From Trypanosoma brucei (taxonomy: Eukaryota): a stretch of DNA of 64,000 bases. Shown piece by piece: positions 25,721 through 61,162 of this stretch. The stretch spans positions 704,001-768,000 of the forward strand of contig CP000070.1 in assembly GCA_000002445.1 (NCBI GenBank), written 5' to 3'. Below the pieces are notes generated by a model that searched no databases, was not told the origin of the DNA, and saw only the letters and a program-made list of their open reading frames with translations. Positions within the stretch are counted from its first letter, which is position 1. The number at the start of each line of letters is the position of its first letter. The position numbers were made by a program, and so were the translations under genes.

Positions 25721-26296
<576 letters not shown>

Positions 26297-26629: not shown

Positions 26630-27205
<576 letters not shown>

Positions 27206-27539: not shown

Positions 27540-28115
<576 letters not shown>

Positions 28116-28448: not shown

Positions 28449-29024
<576 letters not shown>

Positions 29025-29358: not shown

Positions 29359-29934
<576 letters not shown>

Positions 29935-30267: not shown

Positions 30268-30843
<576 letters not shown>

Positions 30844-31176: not shown

Positions 31177-31752
<576 letters not shown>

Positions 31753-32086
31753 ATAGAGTAACTCACAGTCGGTCTGGTGAATATCCCGCGACCTGGAAAT
31801 AGTTAGATGCCTATGCGGATCCCTCACTGCATCCCTTACGGGATTGTTGCGAGTGAGCCCGCAAACTGTTTACTTCACTCCCTTTTTTTTCTTGTTTTTT
31901 CTTGATTGTATGTGTTGTTGGCACTTTTGTCCACAAATCACATTCACCATTTTCTCAATAATTGTTGTGTGGCTCGGTTGTATTTATCGACAATGTGTGC
32001 CTCCATTTGTGTGAGGTGGTGCGGACTTGCCGTGTGCACACACAATGTGGTTGTTGTGCATGTGCACGTATCTGTGCTTCCTTTAG

Positions 32087-32662
<576 letters not shown>

Positions 32663-32995
32663 ATAGAGTAACTCACAGTCGGTCTGGTGAATATCCCGCG
32701 ACCTGGAAATAGTTAGATGCCTATGCGGATCCCTCACTGCATCCCTTACGGGATTGTTGCGAGTGAGCCCGCAAACTGTTTACTTCACTCCCTTTTTTTC
32801 TTGTTTTTTCTTGATTGTGTGTGTTGTTGGCACTTTTGTCCACAAATCACATTCACCATTTTCTCAATAATTGTTGTGTGGCTCGGTTGTATTTATCGAC
32901 AATGTGTGCCTCCATTTGTGTGAGGTGGTGCGGACTTGCCGTGTGCACACACAATGTGGTTGTTGTGCATGTGCACGTATCTGTGCTTCCTTTAG

Positions 32996-33571
<576 letters not shown>

Positions 33572-33904
33572 ATAGAGTAACTCACAGTCGGTCTGGTGAA
33601 TATCCCGCGACCTGGAAATAGTTAGATGCCTATGCGGATCCCTCACTGCATCCCTTACGGGATTGTTGCGAGTGAGCCCGCAAACTGTTTACTTCACTCC
33701 CTTTTTTTCTTGTTTTTTCTTGATTGTATGTGTTGTTGGCACTTTTGTCCACAAATCACATTCACCATTTTCTCAATAATTGTTGTGTGGCTCGGTTGTA
33801 TTTATCGACAATGTGTGCCTCCATTTGTGTGAGGTGGTGCGGACTTGCCGTGTGCACACACAATGTGGTTGTTGTGCATGTGCACGTATCTGTGCTTCCT
33901 TTAG

Positions 33905-34480
<576 letters not shown>

Positions 34481-34812
34481 ATAGAGTAACTCACAGTCGG
34501 TCTGGTGAATATCCCGCGACCTGGAAATAGTTAGATGCCTATGCGGATCCCTCACTGCATCCCTTACGGGATTGTTGCGAGTGAGCCCGCAAACTGTTTA
34601 CTTCACTCCCTTTTTTTTGTTTTTTTCTTGATTGTATGTGTTGTTGGCACTTTTGTCCACAAATCACATTCACCATTTTCTCAATAATTGTTGTGTGGCT
34701 CGGTTGTATTTATCGACAATGTGTGCCTCCATTTGTGTGAGGTGGTGCGGACTTGCCGTGTGCACACACAATGTGGTTGTTGTGCATGTGCACGTGTCTG
34801 TGCTTCCTTTAG

Positions 34813-35388
<576 letters not shown>

Positions 35389-35721
35389 ATAGAGTAACTC
35401 ACAGTCGGTCTGGTGAATATCCCGCGACCTGGAAATAGTTAGATGCCTATGCGGATCCCTCACTGCATCCCTTACGGGATTGTTGCGAGTGAGCCCGCAA
35501 ACTGTTTACTTCACTCCCTTTTTTTTTGTTTTTTTCTTGATTGTATGTGTTGTTGGCACTTTTGTCCACAAATCACATTCACCATTTTCTCAATAATTGT
35601 TGTGTGGCTCGGTTGTATTTATCGACAATGTGTGCCTCCATTTGTGTGAGGTGGTGCGGACTTGCCGTGTGCACACACAATGTGGTTGTTGTGCATGTGC
35701 ACGTGTCTGTGCTTCCTTTAG

Positions 35722-36297
<576 letters not shown>

Positions 36298-36635
36298 ATA
36301 GAGTAACTCACAGTCGGTCTGGTGAATATCCCGCGACCTGGAAATAGTTAGATGCCTATGCGGATCCCTCACTGCATCCCTTACGGGATTGTTGCGAGTG
36401 AGCCCGCAAACTGTTTACTTCACTCCCTTTTTTTTCTTGTTTTTTCTTGATTGTGTGTGTTGTTGGCACTTTTGTCCACAAATCACATTCACCATTTTCT
36501 CAATAATTGTTGTGTGGCTCGGTTGTATTTATCGACAATGTGTGCCTCCATTTGTGTGAGGTGGTGCGGACTTGCCGTGTGCGGACAAATATATTTTTTA
36601 TTAGCTTTTCCTTTTTTTCTTTTTTTTTTTAGGTC

Positions 36636-43267: not shown

Positions 43268-44549
43268 TTATGTATCCCCTCAGCGAAAAACATTCTGTAT
43301 GAACGGTGGTTGTTCCGATTGTTAGGAATGGGGTTGGTGGGGGGACGTTTCACATGCGTGGCAATCGTCCCTCTTATTATTCCTCCTCGTAAACTCCACT
43401 GCCCATCTGAGGCATTGCCCCAAGAACCATATTTCTGGACGTGGTAAGCGCATGTGAACAAAAGGGACGATATCATCTCCATCAGGTGAGGATATTCTCT
43501 TTTCTACGAATCATGGATATGCGAGGGAGACAATAACGGATAAACTTACCGACGTCACCACTCACTTTAGGAAAATGGCAGTTGCGGAGATGTTAAAGGC
43601 CCAAGCATGTTTTCTACCTTTTCCTTTTAAAAAAAGAACGGAATATGAGAGGGAAAATAAACGGAAAGGGGGTAAGAGCCTCAGTTCAAGGGAGAAGAGA
43701 ATACTAGACCTCTTTTAACACCCTGATGTACAGCATCACCGCCACCGACTTTCAGCCGCAGGTTTTTCCCTTCCCTCACTTGTCGTGGCGAAAATTGTGT
43801 GTGGCTACAATGGAGCAAGGTAACTTGCACCGCATGTTTCTCATTTTGAAAGGATTGTTGGCATTAATATTGCTTTCTCGTTTTGTTTTGTTGTTACAAT
43901 ACAGAGCCTCTGCACCGAGGCGACTTATGAGTGTGTGTTTTACATAAAAATATGTGCATGTCTTCGTCACCCTGCTGCTCCCAGTGAAAGAATGCGTCCT
44001 GTAGGGTAAAACCCTGAAGTAGTCCGTGACTTTGCCACTCTCTTAGATCACAGTTGTTAATTATTAAATTATCTACTGACATGGCTGCTCCTACATGAAG
44101 TAAGGGTAGAGATCAAATAGTTTATAATAAAATACTTCTCGTAAACACTTGCTTGCTTTTTGCGTGTTACAAACCTGTCTTCACCAAGGAAAAAAAGTCA
44201 CTCAATCTTGTTATTCTCATTAGTCTTTCGACACCCCTTCATTTTGAGGAAACAACGAATCATTACGATTTCTTTATTTATATTGTAGACAATTGCTCCC
44301 TCATTCAAGTCCTATGCATGATCTACAATTTTCTCGGATCTCTTCCACATTTCACAGAAGGGTCACGTCACGAAGGAGAACATGTGTATGCATACCGGTT
44401 CACTGCCGCTTTGTCAAATACGTACTGTGTTTTTGTACTAGCACCCAAACTCTTCCCTTCCCTTTATCCTTCTCTCTGCCCCAGTGTCATTTTAAGCAAC
44501 AAAGACTAACCAAACAGGAATATTAATATATCTTACAAACGTTTTCACC

Positions 44550-45122
44550 ATGCGCCGGTCTGTATATCAGCTAAGCAAGGAACTCCCAATCTCTGAGGAC
44601 GAGGTTGCGTGTCTGGTGAAGAAGGTGATGCGTGAATGCCCATCAGCCTTCAATTCCCAATCCTCACGTGCTGTGATCCTCTTTGGAGAGCAACACACAA
44701 AGCTATGGAACCTAACGAAGGATAAGCTAAAGGCGACAGTGAAACCCGATTCCTACAATGAGGCCGCCAAGAAGATTGATGGGTGCTTCGCCCCCGCTGC
44801 CGGTACCATATTGTTTTTCGAGGATAAAAGTGTTGTTGAAGGACTTGTCAAGTCGTACCCCGCATACGCAGAAGGTTTCCCAGTGTGGTCAACTGAATCA
44901 TCAGGTATGGCTCAATTCGCCGTGTGGACAGCACTTGCAGAAAAAGGTATCGGTGCGTCTCTGCAGCACTACACATCACTGATCGGTGAGGCGGTGACGG
45001 CGGAGTGGAAGCTTCCGGCAACATGGGAGATGCATGCACAAATGCCATTTGGAAAGCCACTGGAGAAGTGTGGCGAGAAGACGTACATGCCGGATGAAGA
45101 ACGCTTTAAGGTGTTTAAATAA
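44550..45122 (+). CDS. nitroreductase-like protein (Frm2/Hbn1-type, type II nitroreductase family), copy A
   Basis: 190 aa. N-terminal RRS motif, then AFNSQSSRAVILFGE, GTILFFEDK, SLQHY and a C-terminal ..DEERFKVFK. These are characteristic of the small fungal and protist Frm2/Hbn1 nitroreductase-like proteins. Confidence 0.6.
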   Translation: MRRSVYQLSKELPISEDEVACLVKKVMRECPSAFNSQSSRAVILFGEQHTKLWNLTKDKLKATVKPDSYNEAAKKIDGCFAPAAGTILFFEDKSVVEGLVKSYPAYAEGFPVWSTESSGMAQFAVWTALAEKGIGASLQHYTSLIGEAVTAEWKLPATWEMHAQMPFGKPLEKCGEKTYMPDEERFKVFK

Positions 45123-46782
45123 AGTTCGTTGATATTTTTACCGTACTTGATCACACACATGTATTCCTCCATGGACTGATCTTATTTACACTCTTGGTGT
45201 TATTCACCCTCCTTTAAGCACCAATTTCTTTGCAATACATGCATATACATGTTGGTTTTGGGGCACCTTTATATTGTTATCCAACTGCTTTTTTTGTTCG
45301 CCACGCTTTTCCACTTCTTACCTTTTACACACTAGGTTAATTTGGGCACCGCGTGAGGTTAATATGACCAAATGTATGTTTCTCATGTTTTCCCTTCGTT
45401 TAGCGAGGCAAATGTATTGAAGAAAGTGTCGTGGTTGGGGTAAGTGGTGTTACACGCACGACGTGTTCGTTACCCACCCTTTCCACCCTCTTCTCATGCT
45501 TCTGCACTTCTTTACTTTTTTGTTCATTCGTTTATATACATATATACATATATATTTACGTGTTCTGGCTTCTACGATTTTTAAAAAACACGTATCGCTA
45601 TAATTATAAGCGTGTACGCACTTATTTTTTTGTTATCGCTCTATATACATGTGGTGCATAATACAAGGTGTCTCATTATCACTAGAGGTTTCTTAGGTAC
45701 CGTACCCCGGTCATGTAGCATGATGTAGAGGGATGAGAGTCGATATGAATATAATAAATGATGCTTGTAAGGATGATTTGACCAACTACCGCTTTCGTAC
45801 ACGTGTGTATTTTTGCATGCTTGTGTTTTATCTGCTTTGTTTATTGTAACCCATTTAAATCATATTTTTTTGTTCACTTCTGTTGTCTTTTTGTCACTGT
45901 TGAATTGTTCCCATTGAGTTAGCTGAATTTCATTGGTTTTTGGAGTTATCACATGATGTACGTGCTTGTAGCCGTGGCCATGTTGGCAATATTCTTCGCA
46001 GCTTTAGTGCTGTTTTTACGCGGTAAGTTATCTGCTGGATCAGTTGCCACGAGCAACGGTGGAATTGGCAGTGATTCTGGGCTGATGCCCGGTGAGTCAG
46101 TCACTACGAGAGTTCGTCGTGCTCGGAAGGAGGAATAACGATTATCATCCAACAGTGAATATGAGCGGTTGGTGGCGCCTCAGGTGACACGGTTTGTTCG
46201 CAAGATTCGTGCCGCCGCGTTATTTGTTTCCGATTGAGCGCATATGCCGCAGTTAGGTAAATGTTCGGTTGGTGTTGCTGTGGATCTACTGATGTGATCT
46301 GTTGTTGTTGTGTTGTTTTTGAAGAACATTTTTTTAAATACCTTATATTTGTTTTTAATTCTCTCTTCCTTTTTTGTTACACTAATGTGGCCGTAAAGCA
46401 TCCTTAATTAATATTTTGGTTGCCATTGTTAGGTGTCTCCGCAGTTATGTTTACTGTTGGTAATGAAACTATTCTTATTATTATTATTATTATTATTCTT
46501 TTTCTATCCCTTGGCCTTCACCATTATCTTTTTTTTCTTACTTTTGTGACTTCTATGTTTTCAATGGCTACTCAACCTCCCTCCACAGCAGTGCTGTGAT
46601 CTTATCATTTCTCCTGCAAATCCCTGCCGTACATTGTGGTGCTTTCTATATTCTGTCGGCGGAAGCACTCGTGGTAAAAGAGGGGGTAGGGAAAGAGGGA
46701 AACGTGACGAAAGAAGTGGATAGCGTTGAATAACTTGAGAGGCACAATTGTGGAGAGGTTAGATACGAAAGAGTAGTGGAGG

Positions 46783-47721
46783 GTGGGGATCATGTCAAAC
46801 CCACCTAAGCACTACAGTGTGGAGTCATTGCGGACGGTTGGGCTTCTGCCTGCGCAACTGGCCTTGTCCCGTAAGCCACGTCTTCGCCCACACGTAGGTA
46901 ATCTCAAGGGTCTTGTTTACCCTCTACCGTATTACGCAATGTGGCGTGGTAATCACAACAAATACACATATAACAAAAGCACTGTGTGTCTATGGGGAGA
47001 AGGCGATACCCGTTCCATGTACCATCAACATTATGCTCATGCAAAGTGCCCGACGGACTACGGGCGTGGTGGAAGAGAATTTGAATACCTTACAGTGAAG
47101 CGTGGTAAGATGTTACAGAAACCGCTACCGCGGGTGCAATACGTGGCGGAAGGGTCCAAGCCGGTGTGGCTCTTCAAGTCGTGGCATACGCCTCTCAGCT
47201 CACCAAGCATGTGGGAACGAGAGGTTCAGTACGCCGAGCATACACCAGAGCATATTGGTGCCAAGCGGCCGCTTGCAGTAGTCGCACCACGTACAATGCA
47301 TCGCTACCTGTTTCTTATGCATATGGAAAAGGTGACCATTACTGTATCCCCTCTGTTGTTTGGTTATGGTCACACCATACAGAAAGCTGTGTTGGATTTC
47401 TACCGCCGTGCTATAAGTGCTCGCTCTCCATTCCCAAAGGATAAAGTGTTTCTCTTTTATGCCATTGATCACATTACACCTCGTATTGAAGTGACATGGC
47501 TGGATGGGACGTCATATGTTCCACCTGTGTTGGAGGGTGCAAGTTCGCAAGACCTCATTCAGATGGTGATGGAAGAGGCTTGGTTGGCTGCAGATCGCAT
47601 GGCTGCGGAAGGCCGTGTGCTCAATCCGTTAGCAATTGACGATTATAAGTGGGATCAGTTGGTTGTGTTTAAAAAGGTACGGGATAAGGAAGCGAGCAAG
47701 GGTGGTGGCAGAAAGAAGTAA
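46783..47721 (+). CDS. hypothetical protein (312 aa), copy A
   Basis: Long ORF with coding-like composition, duplicated intact. No motif recognised. Confidence 0.5.
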   Translation: MGIMSNPPKHYSVESLRTVGLLPAQLALSRKPRLRPHVGNLKGLVYPLPYYAMWRGNHNKYTYNKSTVCLWGEGDTRSMYHQHYAHAKCPTDYGRGGREFEYLTVKRGKMLQKPLPRVQYVAEGSKPVWLFKSWHTPLSSPSMWEREVQYAEHTPEHIGAKRPLAVVAPRTMHRYLFLMHMEKVTITVSPLLFGYGHTIQKAVLDFYRRAISARSPFPKDKVFLFYAIDHITPRIEVTWLDGTSYVPPVLEGASSQDLIQMVMEEAWLAADRMAAEGRVLNPLAIDDYKWDQLVVFKKVRDKEASKGGGRKK

Positions 47722-49376
47722 GGGATAGGAATTTGTTTGGGTTAGGGGTGGTGGCACCGTGGCCGATTTTTATTTTCCAGTTGTGGTTGTTGTTTTATGG
47801 TACCTCACTTACCCCTTTCCTTTAATTCACAGCTCTTACCGTAGTGTAACTCCTTGTTTTTGCACTTTACGCCAGGTGTGGATGTTGAGTGTTACATTGG
47901 GTTGGTCATTGCCATGCTGATATATATGTGTGCTTTCATTGAAAGTTCATACGGATACTAATATCTTTTCTTTTCATTTACGTTATCACGATATGACGGT
48001 GGTGTTTGTGCCGTTATTGTATTTTGCATCGTGTATGATCCCTTTTCATTTCTCTCTTTCCTCTTTTTCCTCTATTTCACAACACTACTTTAACCTACCG
48101 ACTGACCGAAGTTTAGTGAAGAGGATTGAAACACGACAGGATTAAGCAAAAGGAAAGAAACAGGAAACAGTGTAAGGTGGAAAGGTAGAGTTGTAGGAGG
48201 GACCAAGAAAACGTGTTTGGGCGAAAGGGAAGTTGGGGATTTCTGCATTAAAGGGGAAGTAATGTTTGGCTTTTCAAATTGATTTGTTGGAATTTTGTTT
48301 TTGTGCAAGGTGTGTTGCCGTGTCACTATGTTTATAATGGAGGCTAATTCTATGGGTGCTTGCCTTGTTTGTGCAATCTTTTCCATTTCGTGTTGTATCT
48401 GATCTTATGAACTTCGTCTGGTTTATCCGCTAATAACGTTGTTAATGTAAATGGCAACCATGCGTCGCCCTTTCGGTTTTAAAAAAAACGAACAACTATA
48501 TTCTTTGCCCTTGGTATTTCCATTCCTCAATTTCTCTTTTCTTTTTGTCGCCTTCTCTAGGTGTAGTAAACGCACCGGACTACGCGAAATATAAGACGAC
48601 GGAGGGAAAGAGGATTACATACACGCTACACGAAGGAAAGGGCTTATCATTATTAATTTTCGTGCATTACTTTATTTATCCCGATTTCTCATTCCCCTCT
48701 TTCGTTAGCACCTCCTCTTCCCCTCCCCTTGAGAGTGAAGGGAAGGGAGGTAACGGGTGATTACCAACTGTTTTCGGTGTGACGTGGCCGATCCACCCGT
48801 GTAAGGAACCGGCTTTCACTTTGAGAGACTCTAACGTTCCCGTGTTGGGTCTAAGGAGGGAGGAAACCGGTAGCGACGGGGTATTTAAGACAACTACTTT
48901 TTTTGCGGTAAAAGTGGGCTGGACGTTAGGAAGAAGACGAAGAGGAACCGTGCGTAAAAAAGGTTGTTGTGAGTGAGGTTCCGCTATAGAGGCTAAATAA
49001 GGGTGAGGAGGGTTGTAGGCCCGAAGGGTAGTTGGGTGCTGTGTCACCTGCAGGGAGGAGGTGCGACTACAATTTCGTCAATAGCATCGCTAGTGTTAGT
49101 TACGTTTAGTGTAAAGGCAGAACTGTTTCTAGGGATTGGACTCCGCTAGAACAACGGAACGTGAAGAGTTGCATTTACACAACTCAGTGAGAATTGAGGG
49201 TTGAGGACCCGACGAGAAACCTACGGAGCCGGGGAAAAGAAATCAGTTGCCACAGAACGTTATTTTCATACCCACCATATACTACAGTTTTCCTTAATAT
49301 ATTATTGACTGTTTTTTTTTTTTTAAAGCTACCCAACGACGTGGGTTTCGACTCCTGATAGATTGCAGCCTCTTGC

Positions 49377-52300
49377 TTGCAGTATTCAACGGGGATGACG
49401 TCTCAAACGTCGGCCGTCCTCGTTGCAGTGCGCGTCCGCCCGTTCAACTCCCGGGAGGCTCCTCACGAATGTACAGTTACCGTCACGGATCCGCGTACCA
49501 TCACGCTGACTGATGTCGGTCAGGTTAATCGGTTTAGCACAAGTGTAAGTGGCAGCATGCAACGCCACGTCTTTACGTTCGACAAAATTTTCTGGAGTGT
49601 TCCCGGTTGTGTTCTACCACTTCCTACGACACCCAGTGGGCACAGTCAACAGATGCCGTCCGCGAGCTCCATTAGGTTATCAGTAGCGGATAGTTCTTCG
49701 ACACATTCCCCCTCCCCTACAGAGTCGCCAACGGTGCGAAGGAGTAGCAACAGCAGTGATGCAAGTGTGCCTTGTGCTGCTCCGACGGCGGAGGTTTCTG
49801 TCAGTGCAATAACATGCGTAAGACCTTCATTTCATCGTTTGCCGTGCTTTGCGCAGACCCCAAGTTGTGATAATCAGACTTCTGTCTATTCATTTATCGG
49901 CCCGCTAATGTATGACTCGGTTATGACCGGGTATAACTCATGTTTGTTTGCGTACGGTCAGACAGGGAGCGGCAAAACCTACAGCATGATTGGGCCCCAT
50001 GACAGTTTTTCGGAGAAGGGTGATCAGAGAGGGATTATTCAGCGACTGTGCGAAGACCTCTTCGATATGATGAGGCGTGAGCGTGAAGAGGATGAAGGAA
50101 TCTCCTACAACGTGGAATGTAGCTTTTTGGAGATTTATTGTGAACGCGTGCGTGATCTACTCACCCACACCACGTTTCACAGTACTAATGACGATTATTC
50201 TGCTCCTAACGTTACCACGATGGGCCCACCGTCGAATTTGCGCTCTAAGACCTCGCCGTCTCAGTCGTTGGTGCTGACACCTCGGCAAGGTTCTTCTAAT
50301 CCCTCCCCTCAACTTCGAATTCGGCAGCACCCGACGCATGGACCATATGTCGAGGGTCTTTCCCATGTTAAGGTGCGTGACGTGGAAGGTGTCATGCACC
50401 AACTGACTTGTGGAATGCGAGAACGTGCCACCGCGGAAACACGTATGAACGAACACAGCAGCAGGAGCCATGCATTACTGCAGCTCAATATCACACGTGT
50501 GTCGGCCGTGCGAGAGGAGGAAGCTGTTGTCACACGAACGCGTGTATGTAAGGTTAGTCTCGTGGATCTCGCGGGAAGTGAACGGATTTCGCAGTCAGGT
50601 GCTACAGGTGACCGCTTCGAGGAGGCTCGTAACATCAACCTATCCCTTACAACACTTACTCGTGTAATAATGCAACTCACGGACAAACAGGCGGGGAAGA
50701 ACGTGGTGCCTAGTTACAGGGACAGCGCGCTCACGTGGCTTCTATCAGACAGCCTGGGTGGTAACAGCAAGACAATTATGCTTGCTACGGTGGCTCCTAG
50801 CGCGTACTGCTATCAGCAGACGCTGAATACACTTCGTTTTGCCGGCGTTGCGAAGACGGTGATCAATGTGGCCACGGTCAACGAAGACCAGCGCTTCCAG
50901 AAATTGATTACGTCCTTGAGGGAGCAGATTGTAAAGCTCACTATGCAGGTAGAGGAGGGGAGGATACTTGATCCTCAAAATAGCGAAATAAGGAAGTTGC
51001 GTCGAGATAAAGGTGAGCTGGAGACGCAGCTTGAAGCCATGCGGATAAAAGTGTCCAAAATGGTGCCCGCAACTGATTTGGAGATTCTCCGGCGGCGTGT
51101 GGCAGAGACTGAGGAAGAGAACACACGACTTCACGCGGAAAAGTGCAATTTACAGCGGCAGCTTATGACCACCACGACGAATCTCCGTGAAGAGTTGATA
51201 AGGCGGCGATCGGAGATTGTTAAATTGCAGGAGATGCTCTCAAAGAAGGACGTAGAGGTGCAGGAGTGGAAGCGTCGTCACCATTCGGAAGTGTTGCGAG
51301 GCGGCAAAGCGACACCACAGTCAACTGTACAATTGTCTCGAGGTCGTGCCGCTTCTGGAGGAAGGGCAGCGTCACCCAGTGGTGCCTTCAAATCCAATAA
51401 TAGCTCAAAATGTGGTATGCTCAAGACTGATGTTGCTAGTATTAGCAGTGATTCGATTGTTGAGGGAGATGCCGACTCCGGTTGCGCAGCTGTTGGCGAG
51501 CTGCAGTTTCGCAACCAACAATTAGAGCGTCGGGTAGAGAAGCTAACGGAGAGTGTGAAAGAGGAGCAGAAGCGCCGTGAAGACGTGGAAAAGGTGAATC
51601 ATAATCTGCGATTTGAACTACGCGAGCTGCAGAAGCTACGTGATGCTACAAGAGGACAGTTAGAGGAGGCACAACGTCGGCTCACTGAAAAGTCTCATGC
51701 ACTGGAGGCCGCAGAGAGTGATTTGGCGTCCACGCGGACGTTACTAAGTACTGAGCGGAATGGGAGCTGTGCCAGTGAAAGGGAAGCCCTACTCACCACA
51801 CAGTTGGAAGACCTTCGTGTGGAGTACTTGGGGGAAAAACAGTCCAATGTGGGCCTACTAATGCGTGTGTCTCACATGGAACAACAGTTGTTTCTTTCCC
51901 AGCAGGAGGCAGAAATAAAGTCACGGGATGTTGGTGAGCTTGAGCAAATGCTCTTGGAGGAGACGGAGACATCTGAGCGGTACTATATTTTTCAACTTTA
52001 TTACAGTGGGAAGGCCAACATATGTCACGCTTTCCATCAGAAGATCCTACTCGTTAAAAGTCTCGAACCCACAAATAGTGTTGGGGTCGTCACTGGAGTG
52101 ACACGGCGCTCTTCCTTCTCCGACGGGCCAAGCGTGTGCGTACGAGCGCTGCGCGACTGCGAGTGTAATGAGGGATGTAGACGGCTGCTGCTAGTGGAAG
52201 AGTGGTTCAATACCGTGTTGGACCTTGCAGCGCAACGGCACGCGATGTGGAGATGGTCGGCTTCCGCGTTAAGTGACGAGATACTGTCACTGCGGATTAA

Positions 52301-53423: not shown

Positions 53424-54694
53424 TGCCGGTCTGTCGCTATGGTGCAAAATGCCTTTCCGCAACTTTTCTGAGGTGCCGTATTTGTCAGCAGATTTATGTC
53501 CTCACTCCTCGCTTTTCTTTTATTTCCCACGCTGCGTGTTTTGTCCTCTTTTCACTCTTTCTCTTTTTTTTTTTTGCAGCTACGTGGGCCTAGGTCGTGA
53601 AAGTGACAAAGAGTTCCTCAGTAATTTCCGATTCGTTACATTTTCCCACTTCTTTCCTTATGTTCCAGTCGGTACACATCTTTTTTACCCTTTGGTTTGT
53701 TTACCGTGCTCGTTCAGCCTGTGTGTGCGTATTTGCATTTGGTGAGCTGGGGAGGCGGGGGCCTGGCGGTAATTTTTTCATGTAATAAAAAATGATGGAA
53801 TACATAGTTCTGAGAGAAGTACAGGGTCGACAACGGGGGAGAACGAGACTTCTATGCATAAAGTTTCTTTTTTCAGGGGAGTCGATTTACATTGGAGCGA
53901 AGTTGTGGTGGAGAGAAAAAGGGATATGGTTAGAGTAACGATGTAAACACAAAGAAAGCACGCTTCTGCACGGCACGAAGAGTGGGTTGAAGGGTCCCAT
54001 ATCGTCGGTGGGTGGATTTCGAGGGTTATACGAGTCGATGAACGCGGTTGTCCGATAGTTTGTCCACTACACTATCAAGATATTACAGCGGAAGGAAAGA
54101 GAGAAGTTGGAGAAAAGCGTAGTAAATTAAAGTGTAACGGAGTCAGTGATCGGGTTGTACCATTACTATCATTATTTTGCTACCGCTATTACACAAGTGT
54201 CCCAGTGGTTTTCGTTTGCTATTTGATTCTTTTAGCTGTTCATCCCCCCTTGACCTTCTTCACTCCCCTTCCCAAGGGGTCGCGGAAGGTCAGGTGTGGG
54301 AAGTTATCAAAACTTTCTTTGTTTGGTGTGAACCATGGGAGTAAAGGAGTGGTGGCGGAGCGGGGAAACAGGGAACAAGCTGTTCTCGTGTATTCCTGTT
54401 TTCTTGTCCTCTTATGGTAACGTGTGTTATTTTCGTTCTGTGAAGGCATGCGGGTGAGCACAAGAATGCCCAAATACAAAGAGATGTGCACATGTACACA
54501 CTCTATGCAACACTTTATTTGTGATTGCGGCCACTTCATCCAAAACCAACTGCCCCAATCGCTACACTAAAACTACCGTGTTGTGCGGGTGTATCTCACT
54601 TCTGTCAGGTCATCCTTTTCTTCCTCTGCATTCTCTCCACCTGTGGTGAGCAGTATTTCGGTGGTTGGTTATACATAAACACATATATTAGAAG

Positions 54695-56965
54695 GTGATA
54701 ACGCAGCACCGAAGGGAGTATGAAATGAAGTTCCACCTTCAAAGCGTGCTCTTAATGGCACTGGACGTGGTTAAAGGGCCTTACCTCAGTTGCTTTGCAC
54801 CAGTTAACCCAGTTGAACAAGGAGGGGACGACCAACCTCGTGATGTACAAGGTGACGTAAACAAGGATAGCAGCAGGAACAAAGACATGTTGCACCTTCC
54901 AACGAATGCTGGCCGTTTTAAAGCATTTAGCGATGTCTTTGTGCCGAAATCTGAGTTCTGCCGTCGCGTAATGTGCCTGGTGGAAGCTGAGTCCGGAATC
55001 CTGTACTTGTTTTATCCAGAAGAGATATCTGGTGTCCACTATGAACGAAAAACATTGCGGTACACACTGTGCTTCGCCTTTGCCGTTGACACCAATCTTG
55101 TCACGGCTACTGCAGCGACGGTAGAGCGGCTTCTCCGACCGTATAGCTTTGTCTTGACGAGAATCGTAGAGGGGCTTCGCGAAGCGGAGCAGCGCTCCGG
55201 TTACATGTCTCGCGGCCTTTCCCACAGGCTTTCTACGCATTGTCCCAGCCGTGGAGATTGCCAACAGCAGCAGTCGAAAAATGACCTGATCGGCCAGCCC
55301 TCTCGCAGTGATTTTCACGAATATGGTGGTGGGGTAAGTGCTGAAATACACAGCGTGGTAGGTACAACGTCTTTTGCTTCCCCACCAACCGGGGACGAAG
55401 CGCTCTTTAGGTATGCCAAGGGAACGTCACGGGTCAACGTTTTCTTAACACCACCTCAGGATTCCTCCGGGATGCAGTGGACATCTCTCGAGGCGCTAAT
55501 GGGGGAACTCTTCACGTTTTTAGGAACTGACCCAAAGGAGGGTGAAACTAAGTGCCCGCGACCATGGGCGACAGAAAATACCGTTTCCTTAAGGTTGTGC
55601 GAAACGTTCTTCATTCCCGTGGGTCACAGGGCGCCACCCCATCTACCCCAGCAGCACGCCCTCGATGAAGTGCCCGTTCCCGTAGCCGCGTATGAGCCGG
55701 AGGTATTTGAACACGTGGATTTAGTTATGCACGACGTTTTTAGGATTGTTGATGGGAGGCGTACAATTCGCCAAATTGTACAGGTACTCGCTGCGGAGTG
55801 CGAACGGTACGAAGACAGTGATGAGCTACTCCAAAGGCAAGGACGTATATTTTCTCCCGCAAGCAGCCAGTGTGCTATACATTCGGTATTCGCGCATTCG
55901 CTGCATCCTGTGAACTTTCCCGGAAGCAGGAGCGCCCCGGAGGTTGGCGGTCTCGCATCATCAACTGCGTCAACAAATGCACATCCCAGGGATGCCTTGA
56001 ATACGCAGCGGGCAACCCCTGGGTTGCTCTCCCCGCCGTCAGCAGCAGATATATGTCTTACGTCCCCGTTCCCAAACACAGTATGCTCTGGTACGTGCTT
56101 CAGCGCTCCCACGGTATGCACGTGGTCGAGAACCCTACAGACGTCCCGGTACCTCCCCGAGCGGCAGAATGCTGAAGAAGCAGCAAACAACTCCATCAGC
56201 GACAAGCTCAGCGTTTGGTGTGAGTTGGAGTTACTGGTTGTTGAGGCTCTCCAGCACTTGGAGGTGCACAACTACGTGAAGATCATTCGACCCATTAAAA
56301 TGAAGTACACCTACTTCGCAACGAACGCACTATACTCAATAATGTCCGACAGAAGCAGTCCTGCACGGCAGCTACTAGGAAAACGTATGCTTCTTGTGGA
56401 ATACATGTTTCACAAAGAGAAGGGACAACGCACCAGCTTACAGGGCTCCTCAGGCAATCAGAAGCGACTGCAAGAACTTGCTCCAGAGTACAGAAAAAAT
56501 TTGGAGGGTCTCAACTCTGCAACCCGTCTTACCCCGCCACTGGCTCCACTTAGCGCACATGATAAGGGAGTTGCGGTGGATGATGAAATATCCAGGGAAC
56601 AGCAGTATCATATAAAGCGGGAGCGTTCCAGCGACACTGCTTTGCCGTGTTCCACCTCACTGAGACACAGTTCTACAGAGTGTCTTCAGGATGGGGATTC
56701 ATCACACGATGACGTGGATGTGACTCCAGCCGCGGAAACAAATCCAGATAGACATGAGGCGACCTACACTGAGGTTCTCATTAACATGGCAGCTGCCGCG
56801 GCTCTCTGTGCGCTCGGTAAATTCAGTGGCTCCACAATTTTCAGTGTACAGAGGGATATGCAAGGACACCCTCAGTGGTCGAATGCCTTTGCTAACTGGG
56901 AAGAAAGCTGCTGCAAATCATTGGTCGAAATAGCCATAATTAACGGTTGGCTGGTTGCTCAATGA
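54695..56965 (+). CDS. hypothetical protein with NPR2/NPRL2-like (GATOR1 subunit) N-terminal region
   Basis: By-eye alignment to the NPRL2 family gives FSDVFV...YERKTLRYTLCFAFAVD against F-DTVQV...YSRNALLFNLGFVCD, VPVAAYEPEVF...IVDGRRTIRQI against VPVFTKDKEDF...YIDGFRHIQKI, and LELLVVEALQHLEVHNYVKII against [22 protein letters not shown]. The protein is 756 aa with long Ser/Pro-rich insertions. Confidence 0.4.
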   Translation: MITQHRREYEMKFHLQSVLLMALDVVKGPYLSCFAPVNPVEQGGDDQPRDVQGDVNKDSSRNKDMLHLPTNAGRFKAFSDVFVPKSEFCRRVMCLVEAESGILYLFYPEEISGVHYERKTLRYTLCFAFAVDTNLVTATAATVERLLRPYSFVLTRIVEGLREAEQRSGYMSRGLSHRLSTHCPSRGDCQQQQSKNDLIGQPSRSDFHEYGGGVSAEIHSVVGTTSFASPPTGDEALFRYAKGTSRVNVFLTPPQDSSGMQWTSLEALMGELFTFLGTDPKEGETKCPRPWATENTVSLRLCETFFIPVGHRAPPHLPQQHALDEVPVPVAAYEPEVFEHVDLVMHDVFRIVDGRRTIRQIVQVLAAECERYEDSDELLQRQGRIFSPASSQCAIHSVFAHSLHPVNFPGSRSAPEVGGLASSTASTNAHPRDALNTQRATPGLLSPPSAADICLTSPFPNTVCSGTCFSAPTVCTWSRTLQTSRYLPERQNAEEAANNSISDKLSVWCELELLVVEALQHLEVHNYVKIIRPIKMKYTYFATNALYSIMSDRSSPARQLLGKRMLLVEYMFHKEKGQRTSLQGSSGNQKRLQELAPEYRKNLEGLNSATRLTPPLAPLSAHDKGVAVDDEISREQQYHIKRERSSDTALPCSTSLRHSSTECLQDGDSSHDDVDVTPAAETNPDRHEATYTEVLINMAAAAALCALGKFSGSTIFSVQRDMQGHPQWSNAFANWEESCCKSLVEIAIINGWLVAQ

Positions 56966-57226
56966 ACTGTACCATAAGTTGTTCAGACGATTGGTTACAG
57001 CAAAGGTACGGTACACTATACATTCCTGCACATCAAGGGTCACATCACGAAGGAGAGCATGTGTATGCATACCGGTTCACTGCCGCTTTGTCAAATACGT
57101 ACTGTGTTTTTGTACTAGCACCCAAACTCTTCCCTTCCCTTTATCCTTCTCTCTGCCCCAGTGTCATTTTAAGCAACAAAGACTAACCAAACAGGAATAT
57201 TAATATATCTTACAAACGTTTTCACC

Positions 57227-57799
57227 ATGCGCCGGTCTGTATATCAGCTAAGCAAGGAACTCCCAATCTCTGAGGACGAGGTTGCGTGTCTGGTGAAGAA
57301 GGTGATGCGTGAATGCCCATCAGCCTTCAATTCCCAATCCTCACGTGCTGTGATCCTCTTTGGAGAGCAACACACAAAGCTATGGAACCTAACGAAGGAT
57401 AAGCTAAAGGCGACAGTGAAACCCGATTCCTACAATGAGGCCGCCAAGAAGATTGATGGGTGCTTCGCCCCCGCTGCCGGTACCATATTGTTTTTGGAGG
57501 ATAAAAGTGTTGTTGAAGGACTTGTCAAGTCGTACCCCGCATACGCAGAAGGTTTCCCAGTGTGGTCAACTGAATCATCAGGTATGGCTCAATTCGCCGT
57601 GTGGACAGCACTTGCAGAAAAAGGTATCGGTGCGTCTCTGCAGCACTACACATCACTGATCGGTGAGGCGGTGACGGCGGAGTGGAAGCTTCCGGCAACA
57701 TGGGAGATGCATGCACAAATGCCATTTGGAAAGCCACTGGAGAAGTGTGGCGAGAAGACGTACATGCCGGATGAAGAACGCTTTAAGGTGTTTAAATAA
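57227..57799 (+). CDS. nitroreductase-like protein (Frm2/Hbn1-type), copy B
   Basis: 190 aa, identical to copy A except ILFFEDK>ILFLEDK. Confidence 0.6.
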   Translation: MRRSVYQLSKELPISEDEVACLVKKVMRECPSAFNSQSSRAVILFGEQHTKLWNLTKDKLKATVKPDSYNEAAKKIDGCFAPAAGTILFLEDKSVVEGLVKSYPAYAEGFPVWSTESSGMAQFAVWTALAEKGIGASLQHYTSLIGEAVTAEWKLPATWEMHAQMPFGKPLEKCGEKTYMPDEERFKVFK

Positions 57800-59448
57800 A
57801 GTTCGTTGATATTTTTACCGTACTTGATCACACACATGTATTCCTCCATGGACTGATCTTATTTACACTCTTGGTGTTATTCACCCTCCTTTAAGCACCA
57901 ATTTCTTTGCAATACATGCATATACATGTTGGTTTTGGGGCACCTTTATATTGTTATCCAACTGCTTTTTTTGTTCGCCACGCTTTTCCACTTCTTACCT
58001 TTTACACACTAGGTTAATTTGGGCACCACGTGAGGTTAATATGAACAAATGTATGTTTCTCATGTTTTCCCTTCGTTTAGCGAGGCAAATGTATTGAAGA
58101 AAGTGTCGTGGTTGGGGTAAGTGGTGTTACACGCACGACGTGTTCGTTACCCACCCTTTCCACCCTCTTCTCATGCTTCTGCACTTCTTTACTTTTTTGT
58201 TCATTCGTTTATATACATATATATTTACGTGTTCTGGCTTCTACGATTTTTAAAAAACACGTATCGCTATAATTATAAGCGTGTACGCACTTATTTTTTT
58301 GTTATCGCTCTATATACATGTGGTGCATAATACAAGGTGTCTCATTATCACTAGAGGTTTCTTAGGTACCGTACCCCGGTCATGTAGCATGATGTAGAGG
58401 GATGAGAGTCGATATGAATATAATAAATGATGCTTGTAAGGATGATTTGACCAACTACCGCTTTCGTACACGTGTGTATTTTTGCATGCTTGTGTTTTAT
58501 CTGCTTTGTTTATTGTAACCCATTTAAATCATATTTTTTTGTTCACTTCTGTTGTCTTTTTGTCACTGTTGAATTGTTCCCATTGAGTTAGCTGAATTTC
58601 ATTGGTTTTTGGAGTTATCACATGATGTACGTGCTTGTAGCCGTGGCCATGTTGGCAATATTCTTCGCAGCTTTAGTGCTGTTTTTACGCGGTAAGTTAT
58701 CTGCTGGATCAGTTGCCACGAGCAACGGTGGAATTGGCAGTGATTCTGGGCTGATGCCCGGTGAGTCAGTCACTACGAGAGTTCGTCGTGCTCGGAAGGA
58801 GGAATAACGATTATCATCCAACAGTGAATATGAGCGGTTGGTGGCGCCTCAGGTGACACGGTTTGTTCGCAAGATTCGTGCCGCCGCGTTATTTGTTTCC
58901 GATTGAGCGCATATGCCGCAGTTAGGTAAATGTTCGGTTGGTGTTGCTGTGGATCTACTGATGTGATCTGTTGTTGTTGTGTTGTTTTTGAAGAACATTT
59001 TTTTAAATACCTTATATTTGTTTTTAATTCTCTCTTCCTTTTTTGTTACACTAATGTGGCCGTAAAGCATCCTTAATTAATATTTTGGTTGCCATTGTTA
59101 GGTGTCTCCGCAGTTATGTTTACTGTTGGTAATGAAACTATTCTTCTTATTATTATTATTATTCTTTTTCTATCCCTTGGCCTTCACCATTATCTTTTTT
59201 TTCTTACTTTTGTGACTTCTATGTTTTCAATGGCTACTCAACCTCCCTCCGCAGCAGTGCTGTGATCTTATCATTTCTCCTGCAAATCCCTGCCGTACAT
59301 TGTGGTGCTTTCTATATTCTGTCGGCGGAAGCACTCGTGGTAAAAGAGGGGGTAGGGAAAGAGGGAAACGTGACGAAAGAAGTGGATAGCGTTGAATAAC
59401 TTGAGAGGCACAATTGTGGAGAGGTTAGATACGAAAGAGTAGTGGAGG

Positions 59449-60387
59449 GTGGGGATCATGTCAAACCCACCTAAGCACTACAGTGTGGAGTCATTGCGGA
59501 CGGTTGGGCTTCTGCCTGCGCAACTGGCCTTGTCCCGTAAGCCACGTCTTCGCCCACACGTAGGTAATCTCAAGGGTCTTGTTTACCCTCTACCGTATTA
59601 CGCAATGTGGCGTGGTAATCACAACAAATACACATATAACAAAAGCACTGTGTGTCTATGGGGAGAAGGCGATACCCGTTCCATGTACCATCAACATTAT
59701 GCTCATGCAAAGTGCCCGACGGACTACGGGCGTGGTGGAAGAGAATTTGAATACCTTACAGTGAAGCGTGGTAAGATGTTACAGAAACCGCTACCGCGGG
59801 TGCAATACGTGGCGGAAGGGTCCAAGCCGGTGTGGCTCTTCAAGTCGTGGCATACGCCTCTCAGCTCACCAAGCATGTGGGAACGAGAGGTTCAGTACGC
59901 CGAGCATACACCAGAGCATATTGGTGCCAAGCGGCCGCTTGCAGTAGTCGCACCACGTACAATGCATCGCTACCTGTTTCTTATGCATATGGAAAAGGTG
60001 ACCATTACTGTATCCCCTCTGTTGTTTGGTTATGGTCACACCATACAGAAAGCTGTGTTGGATTTCTACCGCCGTGCTATAAGTGCTCGCTCTCCATTCC
60101 CAAAGGATAAAGTGTTTCTCTTTTATGCCATTGATCACATTACACCTCGTATTGAAGTGACATGGCTGGATGGGACGTCATATGTTCCACCTGTGTTGGA
60201 GGGTGCAAGTTCGCAAGACCTCATTCAGATGGTGATGGAAGAGGCTTGGTTGGCTGCAGATCGCATGGCTGCGGAAGGCCGTGTGCTCAATCCGTTAGCA
60301 ATTGACGATTATAAGTGGGATCAGTTGGTTGTGTTTAAAAAGGTACGGGATAAGGAAGCGAGCAAGGGTGGTGGCAGAAAGAAGTAA
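59449..60387 (+). CDS. hypothetical protein (312 aa), copy B
   Basis: Protein identical to copy A. Confidence 0.5.
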   Translation: MGIMSNPPKHYSVESLRTVGLLPAQLALSRKPRLRPHVGNLKGLVYPLPYYAMWRGNHNKYTYNKSTVCLWGEGDTRSMYHQHYAHAKCPTDYGRGGREFEYLTVKRGKMLQKPLPRVQYVAEGSKPVWLFKSWHTPLSSPSMWEREVQYAEHTPEHIGAKRPLAVVAPRTMHRYLFLMHMEKVTITVSPLLFGYGHTIQKAVLDFYRRAISARSPFPKDKVFLFYAIDHITPRIEVTWLDGTSYVPPVLEGASSQDLIQMVMEEAWLAADRMAAEGRVLNPLAIDDYKWDQLVVFKKVRDKEASKGGGRKK

Positions 60388-61162
60388 GGGATAGGAATTT
60401 GTTTGGGTTAGGGGTGGTGGCACCGTGGCCGATTTTTATTTTCCAGTTGTGGTTGTTGTTTTATGGTACCTCACTTACCCCTTTCCTTTAATTCACAGCT
60501 CTTACCGTAGTGTAACTCCTTGTTTTTGCACTTTACGCCAGGTGTGGATGTTGAGTGTTACATTGGGTTGGTCATTGCCATGCTGATATATATGTGTGCT
60601 TTCATTGAAAGTTCATACGGATACTAATATCTTTTCTTTTCATTTACGTTATCACGATATGACGGTGGTGTTTGTGCCGTTATTGTATTTTGCATCGTGT
60701 ATGATCCCTTTTCATTTCTCTCTTTCCTCTTTTTCCTCTATTTCACAACACTACTTTAACCTACCGACTGACCGAAGTTTAGTGAAGAGGATTGAAACAC
60801 GACAGGATTAAGCAAAAGGAAAGAAACAGGAAACAGTGTAAGGTGGAAAGGTAGAGTTGTAGGAGGGACCAAGAAAACGTGTTTGGGCGAAAGGGAAGTT
60901 GGGGATTTCAGGAGGTGAACTCAGGAGCAACATATATATATATCTTTGTTTTTGTGTGCGAGGGTGTTGATCGTTTGGGGAAGCGGGAAGGAGCTGCTAA
61001 GAGTTACTTCTTCGTTTCTTGAGGCAGAATCCTACTCTAGGGTTTGCTATCTTATCTGAGGGGAGGAGGCGACTTCCCGGATAGTGAAGGAGGAAAGAAA
61101 ATTATTGGTTGAAGTTAAGGAGAGTGATTGCATACACAGGGTCAAGTAGGAAACTGTCCTAG

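What the first reader, a model, noticed from the sequence alone, without database searches (positions are those of the whole stretch)
44357..60909. A 3.9 kb direct segmental duplication at >99% identity brackets the kinesin and NPRL2-like genes
Blocks 44357-48243 and 57034-60909 are near-identical. Each carries a nitroreductase-like gene, a small TM ORF and a 312-aa hypothetical gene. They lie 12.67 kb apart in direct orientation and enclose an 8.8 kb unique segment with the kinesin and the NPR2-like gene. Divergence is confined to microsatellite indels (TA and ATT tracts near 45530/58210 and 46480/59145) and three or four SNPs, one of them nonsynonymous (F>L). That implies either a very recent duplication or ongoing gene conversion. 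Direct repeats of this size are substrates for homologous recombination. That could loop out the kinesin/NPRL2 segment, or amplify it as a tandem or circular episome as kinetoplastids do under selection. The left boundary of copy B abuts the NPRL2-like stop within ~70 bp. The left boundary of copy A lies in noncoding DNA. A false join in the assembly is also possible.
Basis: seen in the sequence. Interest (0 to 1): 0.6.

Follow-up and report, generated by a model that had tools for sequence, protein, structure and literature searches.

The report
Gene-converted 3.9 kb duplication, T. brucei
This is a real but ordinary 3.9 kb three-gene duplication on Trypanosoma brucei chromosome 7 (a nitroreductase, a small membrane protein and the mitochondrial ribosomal protein mL53); it arose only in the T. 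brucei lineage and recombination between the two copies keeps them nearly identical.

Summary
Blocks 44358-48243 and 57035-60909 are direct repeats with 7 mismatches and 2 microsatellite indels, 12,677 bp apart, and enclose 8,791 bp of unique DNA.

The window is T. brucei brucei TREU927 chromosome 7. The genes are already annotated as paralogue pairs: nitroreductase Tb927.7.2980/3020 and Tb927.7.2990/3030. The "hypothetical" 309-aa protein is mitoribosomal protein mL53. The enclosed genes are the kinesin TbKINX1B (Tb927.7.3000) and NPR2 (Tb927.7.3010).

- **Not an assembly artefact.** All four junctions recur in T. b. gambiense, and all four lie on a gap-free T. b. equiperdum contig.
- **Origin.** Outgroups show copy B at the ancestral site. 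T. vivax (DNA) and T. congolense (accession order) are single-copy, with helicase next to kinesin. Copy A is therefore a Trypanozoon-specific insertion.
- **Not recent.** Both copies share 25 lineage-specific substitutions in TREU927 against the other lineage. Only one edge SNP tracks position. This is concerted evolution by gene conversion.
- **Loop-out or episome.** This remains untested. Published work finds no stable amplification in T. brucei, and the kinesin is essential in bloodstream forms.

Verdict: an ordinary low-copy repeat of low interest.

The parts
44358..48243 (+). Copy A of the 3.9 kb block (derived copy, inserted in the ancestral helicase-kinesin spacer)
   Evidence: Self-BLASTN. 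The helicase is directly followed by the kinesin in T. vivax and in T. congolense by accession order.
57035..60909 (+). Copy B of the block (ancestral position, between NPR2-like and WD40 genes)
   Evidence: Self-BLASTN. The order NPR2L-NTR-mL53-WD40 is seen in T. melophagium and T. vivax. T. cruzi has NPR2L-mL53-WD40 without the NTR.
44550..45122 (+). Nitroreductase-family gene, copy A (Tb927.7.2980, AAZ12362), 190 aa
   Evidence: Pfam PF00881 E=5.5e-17. Closest solved relatives are 8cqv, CinD 4bn6 and Frm2 4urp. Accession; gene ID from PMC5879877.
57227..57799 (+). Nitroreductase-family gene, copy B (Tb927.7.3020, AAZ12366), 190 aa, carries F90L
   Evidence: This exact sequence is found only in TREU927.
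45953..46138 (+). 61-aa ORF with a hydrophobic N-terminal segment, copy A
   Evidence: ORF list. tblastn finds it at the syntenic NTR/NPR2L-mL53 spacer in T. melophagium (E=3.5e-5) and T. cruzi (E=1.3e-5). It was called as a gene in T. b. equiperdum.
58622..58807 (+). 61-aa ORF, copy B (identical protein)
46792..47721 (+). mL53, mitoribosomal large-subunit protein, copy A (Tb927.7.2990, AAZ12363), 309 aa
   Evidence: PDB 6HIV chain Ap 'mL53', E=8e-217 over residues 1-309. Accessions.
59458..60387 (+). mL53, copy B (Tb927.7.3030, AAZ12367), protein identical to copy A
   Evidence: PMC5724185 predicted it to be a mitoribosome subunit.
44450..44482 (+). 33-nt polypyrimidine tract followed by AG (44483): inferred trans-splice acceptor of NTR-A. 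The twin in copy B is at 57127-57159.
   Evidence: The function is inferred from the known polyY/AG rule of trypanosome trans-splicing.
48039..48078 (+). 40-nt polypyrimidine tract with AG at 48110 near the 3' end of the block. The twin at 60705-60744 (AG at 60776) is the only polyY tract upstream of the WD40 ATG, so it is probably that gene's splice acceptor and sets the mL53 poly(A) site.
   Evidence: inference
48244..57034 (+). Unique 8,791-bp segment between the copies, holding TbKINX1B kinesin (49395-53423, 1342 aa, Tb927.7.3000) and the NPR2-like gene (first ATG at 54725, ends 56965, Tb927.7.3010)
   Evidence: PMC8906236 and PMC5879877.
43268..44357 (+). Left half of the former helicase-kinesin spacer. 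The right half is 48244-49394.
   Evidence: There is no kinase, NTR or mL53 relic, and no target-site duplication or microhomology at the junctions.
44380..44380 (+). Position-specific SNP 22 bp inside the left edge: A in copy A and G in copy B (57057) in TREU927, T. b. equiperdum and T. b. gambiense
45533..45540 (+). One extra TATATACA unit in copy A. There is also one extra 3-bp unit at 46475-46477.

Best explanation
A three-gene cassette was copied once in the ancestor of the T. brucei group (Trypanozoon), after the split from T. congolense. The cassette holds a CinD/Frm2-like nitroreductase, a 61-aa membrane ORF and mitoribosomal protein mL53, together with its own flanking RNA-processing signals. 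Its original site is between the NPR2-like gene and the WD40 gene (copy B). The copy went 12.7 kb upstream, into the spacer between helicase Tb927.7.2970 and kinesin TbKINX1B (copy A).

Both copies lie in the same polycistronic transcription unit. They presumably double the dose of two genes in an organism that regulates little by transcription (inference).

Since the duplication, the two copies have been repeatedly homogenised by intrachromosomal (interlocus) gene conversion. They therefore evolve in concert and look young.

What is shown: that the duplication is real, its boundaries, which copy is ancestral, its restriction to the T. brucei lineage, and the concerted-evolution pattern.

What is inferred: the copying mechanism. 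It could be a template-switch or ectopic-repair insertion, or a 12.7 kb tandem duplication followed by deletion of the first kinesin-NPR2L pair. The benefit of the extra dosage is also inferred.
For: 1. Identity of the locus. The helicase is 100% identical to Tb927.7.2970. GenBank accessions AAZ12361-68 run in the window's gene order.

2. The duplication is real.
- The T. b. equiperdum contig CM010678.1 carries both copies with the same boundaries across 32.8 kb without N.
- T. b. gambiense contigs reproduce all four junctions: helicase|A, A|kinesin spacer, NPR2L|B and B|WD40.
- T. equiperdum OVI reproduces helicase|A, block|WD40 and A|kinesin spacer.

3. Ancestral order.
- T. vivax, on a 468-kb contig, has H2A-AAA-EFhand-helicase-kinesin-NPR2L-NTR-mL53-WD40. 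It is single copy and shows no self-repeat apart from H2A.
- T. congolense contig 899 has helicase CCD17439, kinesin CCD17440 and mL53 CCD17443.
- T. melophagium has kinesin-NPR2L-NTR-mL53-WD40.

4. Concerted evolution.
- Within-genome A/B mismatches are 7 (TREU927), 9 (T. b. equiperdum) and 14 (T. b. gambiense). Between TREU927 and the other two genomes there are 30-45.
- At 25 sites both TREU927 copies differ from all four other copies. At 3 sites both gambiense copies share a private allele.
- One site is position-specific in all three genomes, and one further site (46351) is A-specific in two.
- Between genomes the block has diverged about 0.85%, comparable to the unique flanks at 0.7-1.5%.

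5. The block runs from the NTR polyY/AG to a second polyY/AG.

6. Both NTR genes are reported about 50-fold up in procyclic forms (PMC5879877).
Against: - The T. congolense single-copy state rests on accession order and a single mL53 entry, not on DNA.
- Within-genome copy differences in any assembly may be understated by consensus polishing, or blurred by heterozygosity in a diploid.
- CM010678.1 and DAL972 copies are not resolved from each other. The concerted signal therefore rests on essentially two lineages (TREU927/OVI against T. b. equiperdum/gambiense), plus the three gambiense-specific shared sites.
- There is no direct evidence on expression of each copy separately, or on any fitness benefit.
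- The junctions carry no microhomology or target-site duplication, so the copying mechanism is unresolved.
Confidence: 0.88

Rival explanations
1. A very recent duplication with no gene conversion: the copies are near-identical simply because they are young.
For: Only 7 SNPs and 2 microsatellite indels separate the copies in the window.
Against: - The same structure with the same boundaries occurs in T. b. gambiense, T. b. equiperdum and T. equiperdum OVI.
- The block differs by 30-45 sites between lineages while both copies in a genome share those alleles.
- An edge SNP (44380/57057) is position-specific in all three genomes, so the duplication predates their split.
Confidence: 0.03
2. An assembly artefact: a false join or an artificially expanded repeat in the reference.
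For: Two draft assemblies show the repeat collapsed. DAL972 has helicase-[block]-WD40, with the kinesin contig parked 59 kb away between 100-N gaps. OVI has the kinesin after an N gap.
Against: - The collapsed drafts still contain the internal junctions A|kinesin-spacer and NPR2L|B. DAL972 holds about 2 block equivalents in total.
- CM010678.1 spans the whole structure without gaps.
- The window has no N.
- Position-specific edge SNPs exist.
Confidence: 0.02
3. The repeat pair is a working recombination substrate. It generates loop-out deletions, or circular or tandem amplicons of the kinesin/NPR2L segment, that matter for adaptation, as in Leishmania. This is not exclusive of the best explanation.
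For: - Direct repeats of 3.9 kb at 99.8% identity are ideal substrates for homologous recombination. The gene conversion shown here proves that the copies do interact.
- Ubeda 2014 detected rearrangements by PCR at selected T. brucei repeats (PMC4028189).
- The DAL972 and OVI contig layouts are what a deletion allele plus a circle would also produce.
Against: - The same paper states that no stable amplification is observed in T. brucei, possibly because the extrachromosomal DNA cannot replicate.
- TbKINX1B is essential in bloodstream forms, so a homozygous loop-out would be lethal.
- The draft-assembly layouts are fully explained by one assembler mis-join.
- No read-depth or junction data are available here.
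Confidence: 0.07

Closest known systems
Tandem gene arrays and segmental duplications of T. brucei under concerted evolution (Jackson 2007, PMC1855330; Jackson et al. 2010, PMC2854126)
   Same: Duplicated genes sit in one polycistronic unit and are interpreted as dosage increase. The duplicates are homogenised by gene conversion. Such repeats caused assembly problems in the DAL972 draft.
   Different: - There are only two copies, and they are not head-to-tail: 8.8 kb with two unrelated single-copy genes lies between them.
- The locus was not in those surveys, which covered arrays of more than 3 copies and subspecies-specific duplications.
- Jackson 2007 found T. b. brucei and T. b. gambiense array copies usually interspersed. 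Here the copies group by lineage even within T. brucei.
Repeat-mediated extrachromosomal amplification in Leishmania (Ubeda et al. 2014, PMC4028189)
   Same: A chromosomal segment is bracketed by direct repeats in a kinetoplastid. RAD51-type recombination between the repeats is plausible.
   Different: - No amplicon or deletion has been shown here.
- The paper's T. brucei repeats are described as intergenic (Figure S8 legend). This repeat is a 3.9 kb gene-bearing block.
- T. brucei is reported not to maintain such amplicons.
Low-copy repeats with interlocus gene conversion in other eukaryotes (my own knowledge: human segmental duplications, yeast dispersed repeats)
   Same: Kilobase-scale direct repeats about 10 kb apart show within-genome identity higher than between-lineage identity. 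Divergence survives only at the repeat edges.
   Different: None in principle; this is a textbook example in a trypanosome.

Membership tests
Segmental duplication evolving in concert (interlocus gene conversion) | Two long, near-identical copies in one genome, far beyond chance | tested here: met
   3,886 columns, 99.54% identity, bit score 7066. It is the only non-tandem repeat in the window.
Segmental duplication evolving in concert (interlocus gene conversion) | The same junctions appear in independent assemblies, so the repeat is not an artefact | tested here: met
   CM010678.1 spans the structure gap-free. DAL972 contigs hold all four junctions and OVI holds three.
Segmental duplication evolving in concert (interlocus gene conversion) | Single copy in outgroups, which gives polarity and age | tested here: met
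   T. vivax DNA is single copy and collinear. T. congolense is single copy by accession order only.
Segmental duplication evolving in concert (interlocus gene conversion) | Paralogues group by genome rather than by position, although the duplication predates the split | tested here: met
   There are 25 sites (plus 1 tri-allelic) with pattern 927(A,B) against others(A,B), and 3 with both gambiense copies private. One site is position-specific in all three genomes, and one more (46351) is A-specific in two.
Segmental duplication evolving in concert (interlocus gene conversion) | Direct observation of conversion events or tracts in phased haplotypes or experimental lines | not testable with these tools
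   No read-level or population data are available.
Tandem gene array (sense of Jackson 2007) | Head-to-tail repeat units with no unrelated genes between them, and more than 3 copies in that survey | tested here: not met
   There are two copies separated by 8,791 bp that carry TbKINX1B and NPR2L.
Repeat-bracketed amplification/deletion locus (Leishmania type) | Direct repeats bracketing a chromosomal segment | tested here: met
Repeat-bracketed amplification/deletion locus (Leishmania type) | A detectable circle or deletion junction, or altered read depth of the bracketed segment | not testable with these tools
   The repeat is longer than any short contig. The collapsed DAL972 and OVI layouts are ambiguous.
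Transposon- or retroposon-mediated duplication | Target-site duplication, terminal repeats, a poly(A) tail or a mobile-element ORF at the block ends | tested here: not met
   There are 0 bp of shared sequence at the junctions and no inverted repeats. The only Pfam domain in the block is Nitroreductase. No comparison with ingi/RIME consensus sequences was made.
Mitoribosomal protein mL53 (kinetoplastid) | Full-length sequence match to the chain modelled as mL53 in the T. brucei mitoribosome structures | tested here: met
   6HIV_Ap, E=8e-217, residues 1-309 of 309. The Leishmania chain 7AIH_Ae gives E=6e-169.
Nitroreductase family PF00881 (CinD/Frm2-like subgroup) | Pfam match above the gathering score and full-length similarity to solved members | tested here: met
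   62.9 bits against a cutoff of 23.5. 8cqv E=9e-61, CinD 4bn6 E=5.5e-47, Frm2 4urp E=1.2e-29. Enzyme activity was not tested.

The most novel reading that the evidence does not exclude
The "collapsed" layouts in the T. b. gambiense DAL972 and T. equiperdum OVI drafts might not be pure assembler errors. These layouts are helicase-[A/B hybrid block]-WD40, plus a separate contig whose ends overlap inside the block. They could reflect a real recombination product: a heterozygous loop-out allele and/or a 12.7 kb circle carrying TbKINX1B and NPR2L. That would mean copy-number polymorphism of an essential flagellar-pocket kinesin and a nutrient-signalling gene in clonal trypanosome lineages.
Probability: 0.06. 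Interest if true: 0.4.

Novelty: new member of a known kind. Interest (0 to 1): 0.17.

Why it matters
Mostly it matters for housekeeping.

- Tb927.7.2980/3020 and Tb927.7.2990/3030 are indistinguishable to short reads. RNA-seq, RIT-seq and proteomics cannot assign signal to one copy; Tb927.7.2990 was missing from the RIT-seq screen (PMC4445814).
- A knockout of the nitroreductase or of mL53 needs four alleles removed.
- The locus is a clean, datable example of interlocus gene conversion between dispersed repeats in T. brucei. It could serve as a natural reporter of ectopic recombination rate.
- It also explains mis-assemblies in two public draft genomes.
- It opens no new biological question.

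Tried and rejected
1. **"Copy A replaced a protein kinase gene."**
- T. rangeli, T. conorhini, T. cruzi and L. major all have an orthologous 358-399-aa kinase just upstream of the kinesin. T. brucei has no relic of it.
- T. vivax and T. congolense already lack the kinase and have helicase next to kinesin. The kinase loss is therefore older and unrelated. Rejected.

2. **The DAL972 arrangement as a genuine translocation.** The kinesin contig has 100-N gaps on both sides, and its ends overlap in repeat coordinates. One mis-join explains this.

3. **Hidden RNA cargo.** Rfam and tRNA scans of 43-61.5 kb found nothing.

4. **Junction signatures.** I looked for a target-site duplication or microhomology and found none.

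5. **TREU927 DNA from the contig index.** The exact helicase is not on record there. Identification therefore rests on protein identity and accession order.

6. **Literature.** Searches for the gene IDs and for T. brucei duplications found no paper that describes this duplication as such. A search for the assembly accession GCA_003543875 found nothing.

7. **Spacer comparison.** Nucleotide comparison of the T. brucei spacers with the T. vivax spacer showed they are too diverged to align.


Full report
**Observation**

A self-BLASTN of the window returns one non-tandem repeat pair. It runs 44358-48243 against 57035-60909, in direct orientation. Identity is 99.54% over 3,886 columns, with 7 mismatches and 2 gap openings.

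A base-by-base alignment places the differences as follows:
- SNPs at 44367, 44380, 44819, 45351, 45368, 46480 and 46585.
- One extra 8-bp TATATACA unit at 45533-45540.
- One extra 3-bp unit at 46475-46477.

The edges are sharp. The bases just outside the blocks differ, and there is no shared sequence at the junctions. Spacing is 12,677 bp and the enclosed unique DNA is 8,791 bp. The one coding difference is F90L in the copy-B nitroreductase, and the mL53 products are identical.

**What the genes are**

The window is T. brucei brucei TREU927 chromosome 7. Three results support this:
- The helicase at 40793-43267 is 100% identical to Tb927.7.2970.
- GenBank protein accessions AAZ12361 to AAZ12368 follow the window's gene order. 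AAZ12362/66 are the two nitroreductases and AAZ12363/67 are the two copies of the 309-aa protein.
- The L90 nitroreductase variant exists only in TREU927.

The 309-aa "hypothetical" protein is mitoribosomal large-subunit protein mL53 (PDB 6HIV chain Ap, E=8e-217, full length).

The 190-aa protein is a Pfam Nitroreductase family member. Its closest solved relatives are bacterial CinD-like enzymes and yeast Frm2.

The 61-aa hydrophobic ORF between them is weakly conserved at the syntenic spot in T. melophagium and T. cruzi (E about 1e-5), so it is probably a real small gene.

The enclosed genes are TbKINX1B and NPR2:
- TbKINX1B is Tb927.7.3000, 1342 aa from the ATG at 49395. It is a BILBO1 partner and is essential in bloodstream forms (PMC8906236).
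- NPR2 is Tb927.7.3010 (PMC5879877).

The literature already cites "nitroreductase (Tb927.7.2980 and Tb927.7.3020)" as a pair that is about 50-fold up-regulated in procyclic forms. Tb927.7.3030 was predicted to be a mitoribosome subunit (PMC5724185).

**Is it real?**

Yes.
- The T. b. equiperdum chromosome CM010678.1 (locus tags DPX39) carries both copies with the same boundaries. The sequence is contiguous for 32.8 kb without N.
- In T. b. gambiense DAL972, one contig reads helicase-block-WD40. Another reads from repeat offset about 2522 of copy A, through the kinesin and NPR2L, to offset about 2716 of copy B.
- That second contig is bounded by 100-N gaps on both sides. It is parked among unrelated minus-strand genes about 59 kb upstream.
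- A single assembler mis-join across the repeat accounts for this layout. All four junctions are present and the total block content is about two copies.
- The T. equiperdum OVI scaffold is collapsed in the same way. The kinesin follows an N gap, and the sequence resumes 32 bp inside the block's right end.
- The window itself has no N.

**Polarity and age**

| Species | Gene order |
|---|---|
| T. vivax (468-kb contig) | H2A-AAA-EFhand-helicase-kinesin-NPR2L-NTR-mL53-WD40; single copy, no self-repeat except H2A |
| T. melophagium | kinesin-NPR2L-NTR-mL53-WD40 |
| T. cruzi | kinase-kinesin-NPR2L-mL53-WD40 |
| T. congolense IL3000 (contig 899) | helicase CCD17439, kinesin CCD17440, mL53 CCD17443 |

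In T. congolense the helicase and kinesin are therefore adjacent, and exactly two genes precede a single mL53. This rests on accession order, not DNA. The same numbering logic reproduces the TREU927 gene order.

Copy B is therefore in the ancestral place. Copy A is an insertion into the helicase-kinesin spacer that happened in the T. brucei lineage after it split from T. congolense.

I first suspected that copy A had replaced a conserved protein kinase. That kinase lies between helicase (or EF-hand gene) and kinesin in T. rangeli, T. conorhini, T. cruzi and L. major. T. vivax and T. congolense already lack it, so its loss is older and unrelated to the duplication.

**Recent duplication or gene conversion?**

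I aligned six copies: A and B from TREU927 and from T. b. equiperdum, plus reconstructed A and B from T. b. gambiense.

| Comparison | Mismatches |
|---|---|
| TREU927 A vs B | 7 |
| T. b. equiperdum A vs B | 9 |
| T. b. gambiense A vs B | 14 |
| TREU927 vs the other two genomes | 30-45 |

The site patterns were:
- At 25 sites, plus the tri-allelic site 44819, both TREU927 copies carry one allele and all four other copies carry another.
- At 3 sites both gambiense copies share a private allele.
- Only one site, 44380/57057, 22 bp from the left edge, separates A from B in all three genomes.
- One more site (46351) is A-specific in two genomes.

Between genomes the block has diverged about 0.85%, which is similar to the unique flanks at 0.7-1.5%.

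A duplication that predates the lineage split, without exchange between copies, would give mostly position-specific sites. The observed pattern is the opposite. The copies have been homogenised since the split, and divergence survives at the extreme edges, where conversion tracts rarely reach. This is standard concerted evolution.

Caveats:
- T. b. equiperdum and T. b. gambiense copies are not resolved from each other, so the signal rests on essentially two lineages.
- Consensus polishing or heterozygosity may distort the small within-genome counts.

**Anatomy and likely function**

The block starts about 90 bp upstream of a 33-nt polypyrimidine tract with an AG (44450-44483), which lies about 67 nt before the nitroreductase ATG. 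The block ends about 130 bp after a 40-nt polypyrimidine tract with an AG (48039-48110 / 60705-60776). In copy B that second tract is the only candidate splice acceptor for the WD40 gene.

Trans-splicing and upstream polyadenylation are coupled in trypanosomes (established knowledge). The block is therefore a self-contained processing module, and both copies should give identical mRNAs (inference). All genes here are on the + strand of one polycistronic unit. The simplest functional reading is a doubled dose of a strongly procyclic-induced nitroreductase and of mL53 (inference).

No Rfam family or tRNA lies in the region.

**Mechanism of origin**

This is unresolved. There are two routes to the same structure:
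- A templated insertion, by ectopic break repair or template switching.
- A 12.7 kb tandem duplication followed by deletion of the first kinesin-NPR2L pair.

The junctions carry no microhomology, target-site duplication or mobile-element signature.

**Loop-out or episome idea**

The copies clearly recombine, since they undergo gene conversion. No deletion or circle can be tested with the data available.

Ubeda et al. 2014 catalogued 773 direct or inverted repeats in T. brucei. They detected rearrangements by PCR at selected ones. They observed no stable amplification, possibly because extrachromosomal DNA cannot replicate (PMC4028189). A homozygous loop-out would delete a kinesin that is essential in bloodstream forms.

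**Comparison with what is known**

Tandem arrays and segmental duplications under concerted evolution are well described in T. brucei (PMC1855330, PMC2854126). This two-copy, interspersed duplication falls outside those surveys.

It also differs in one respect. Jackson 2007 found T. b. brucei and T. b. gambiense array copies usually interspersed, whereas these copies group by lineage within T. brucei.

No paper found here describes the duplication as such. Its genes are nonetheless annotated and cited as pairs.

**Verdict**

This is a real but ordinary low-copy repeat: a new, well-documented member of a known kind. Interest is low.

Noticed in passing
window 24830-36730: There are 13 tandem copies of a 909-910 bp unit at 98-100% identity, with a decayed 14th copy (69%) at 36430. 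This is the histone H2A gene array of chromosome 7: related loci annotate 134-aa H2A genes just upstream of the AAA/EF-hand/helicase genes. Jackson 2007 lists histone H2A as an invariant array.
   Followed up: partly
L001 4504-4512 / L002 16705-16713, equivalent to window 51269-51711: In the T. b. equiperdum assembly CM010678.1, the TbKINX1B orthologue lacks 443 bp between short microhomologies (..GCAGGAGTG / ..GCAGAGAGTG). This causes a frameshift and loss of aa 626-775, which overlaps the published BILBO1-binding domain (aa 517-715). No kinesin gene was called there. T. b. gambiense and T. equiperdum OVI have the intact ORF. It could be a pseudogene of a gene reported essential in bloodstream forms, a heterozygous allele, or an assembly error.
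   Followed up: partly
L011 9694-10893, L012 9921-11120, L014 7768-8967, L015 4056-5132 (no counterpart in the window): A conserved 358-399-aa protein kinase lies immediately upstream of the kinesin in T. rangeli, T. conorhini, T. cruzi and L. major (51-78% identity among them). It is absent from this position in T. vivax, T. congolense (by accession order) and T. brucei. This points to a loss or relocation specific to the salivarian trypanosomes. The only kinase hit in the window is a 29%-identical paralogue at 13778-14539.
   Followed up: partly
L003, L004 and L017 (FN554970.1, about 736.7-767.6 kb and 806-826.6 kb): The T. b. gambiense DAL972 chromosome 7 pseudomolecule is mis-assembled at this locus. 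The repeat is collapsed at its true site. The kinesin-NPR2L contig, with two truncated mL53 fragments annotated as separate genes (CBH12345, 260 aa, labelled 'unlikely'; CBH12350, 96 aa), sits between 100-N gaps about 59 kb upstream.
   Followed up: yes
L014 (T. cruzi) 5951-8967 and 17400-18909; L015 (L. major): Gene content around the locus varies. In T. cruzi no helicase is called between the EF-hand gene and the kinase, and no nitroreductase is detectable between NPR2L and mL53. L. major also has no nitroreductase hit downstream of the kinesin, and its NPR2-like gene is 1976 aa.
   Followed up: partly
L006 1-387 (Logan contig ERR7929161_920): The contig matches the window only from the nitroreductase start codon onward, and that codon reads TTG instead of ATG. 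The first about 382 nt encode the start of an unrelated ORF on the opposite strand, only 4 nt away. It is probably a chimeric short-read contig or an engineered locus.
   Followed up: no
window 1-24000: GC skew and AT skew change sign near 8 kb and again near 24 kb. This may mark a strand-switch region or transcription-unit boundary upstream of the H2A array.
   Followed up: no
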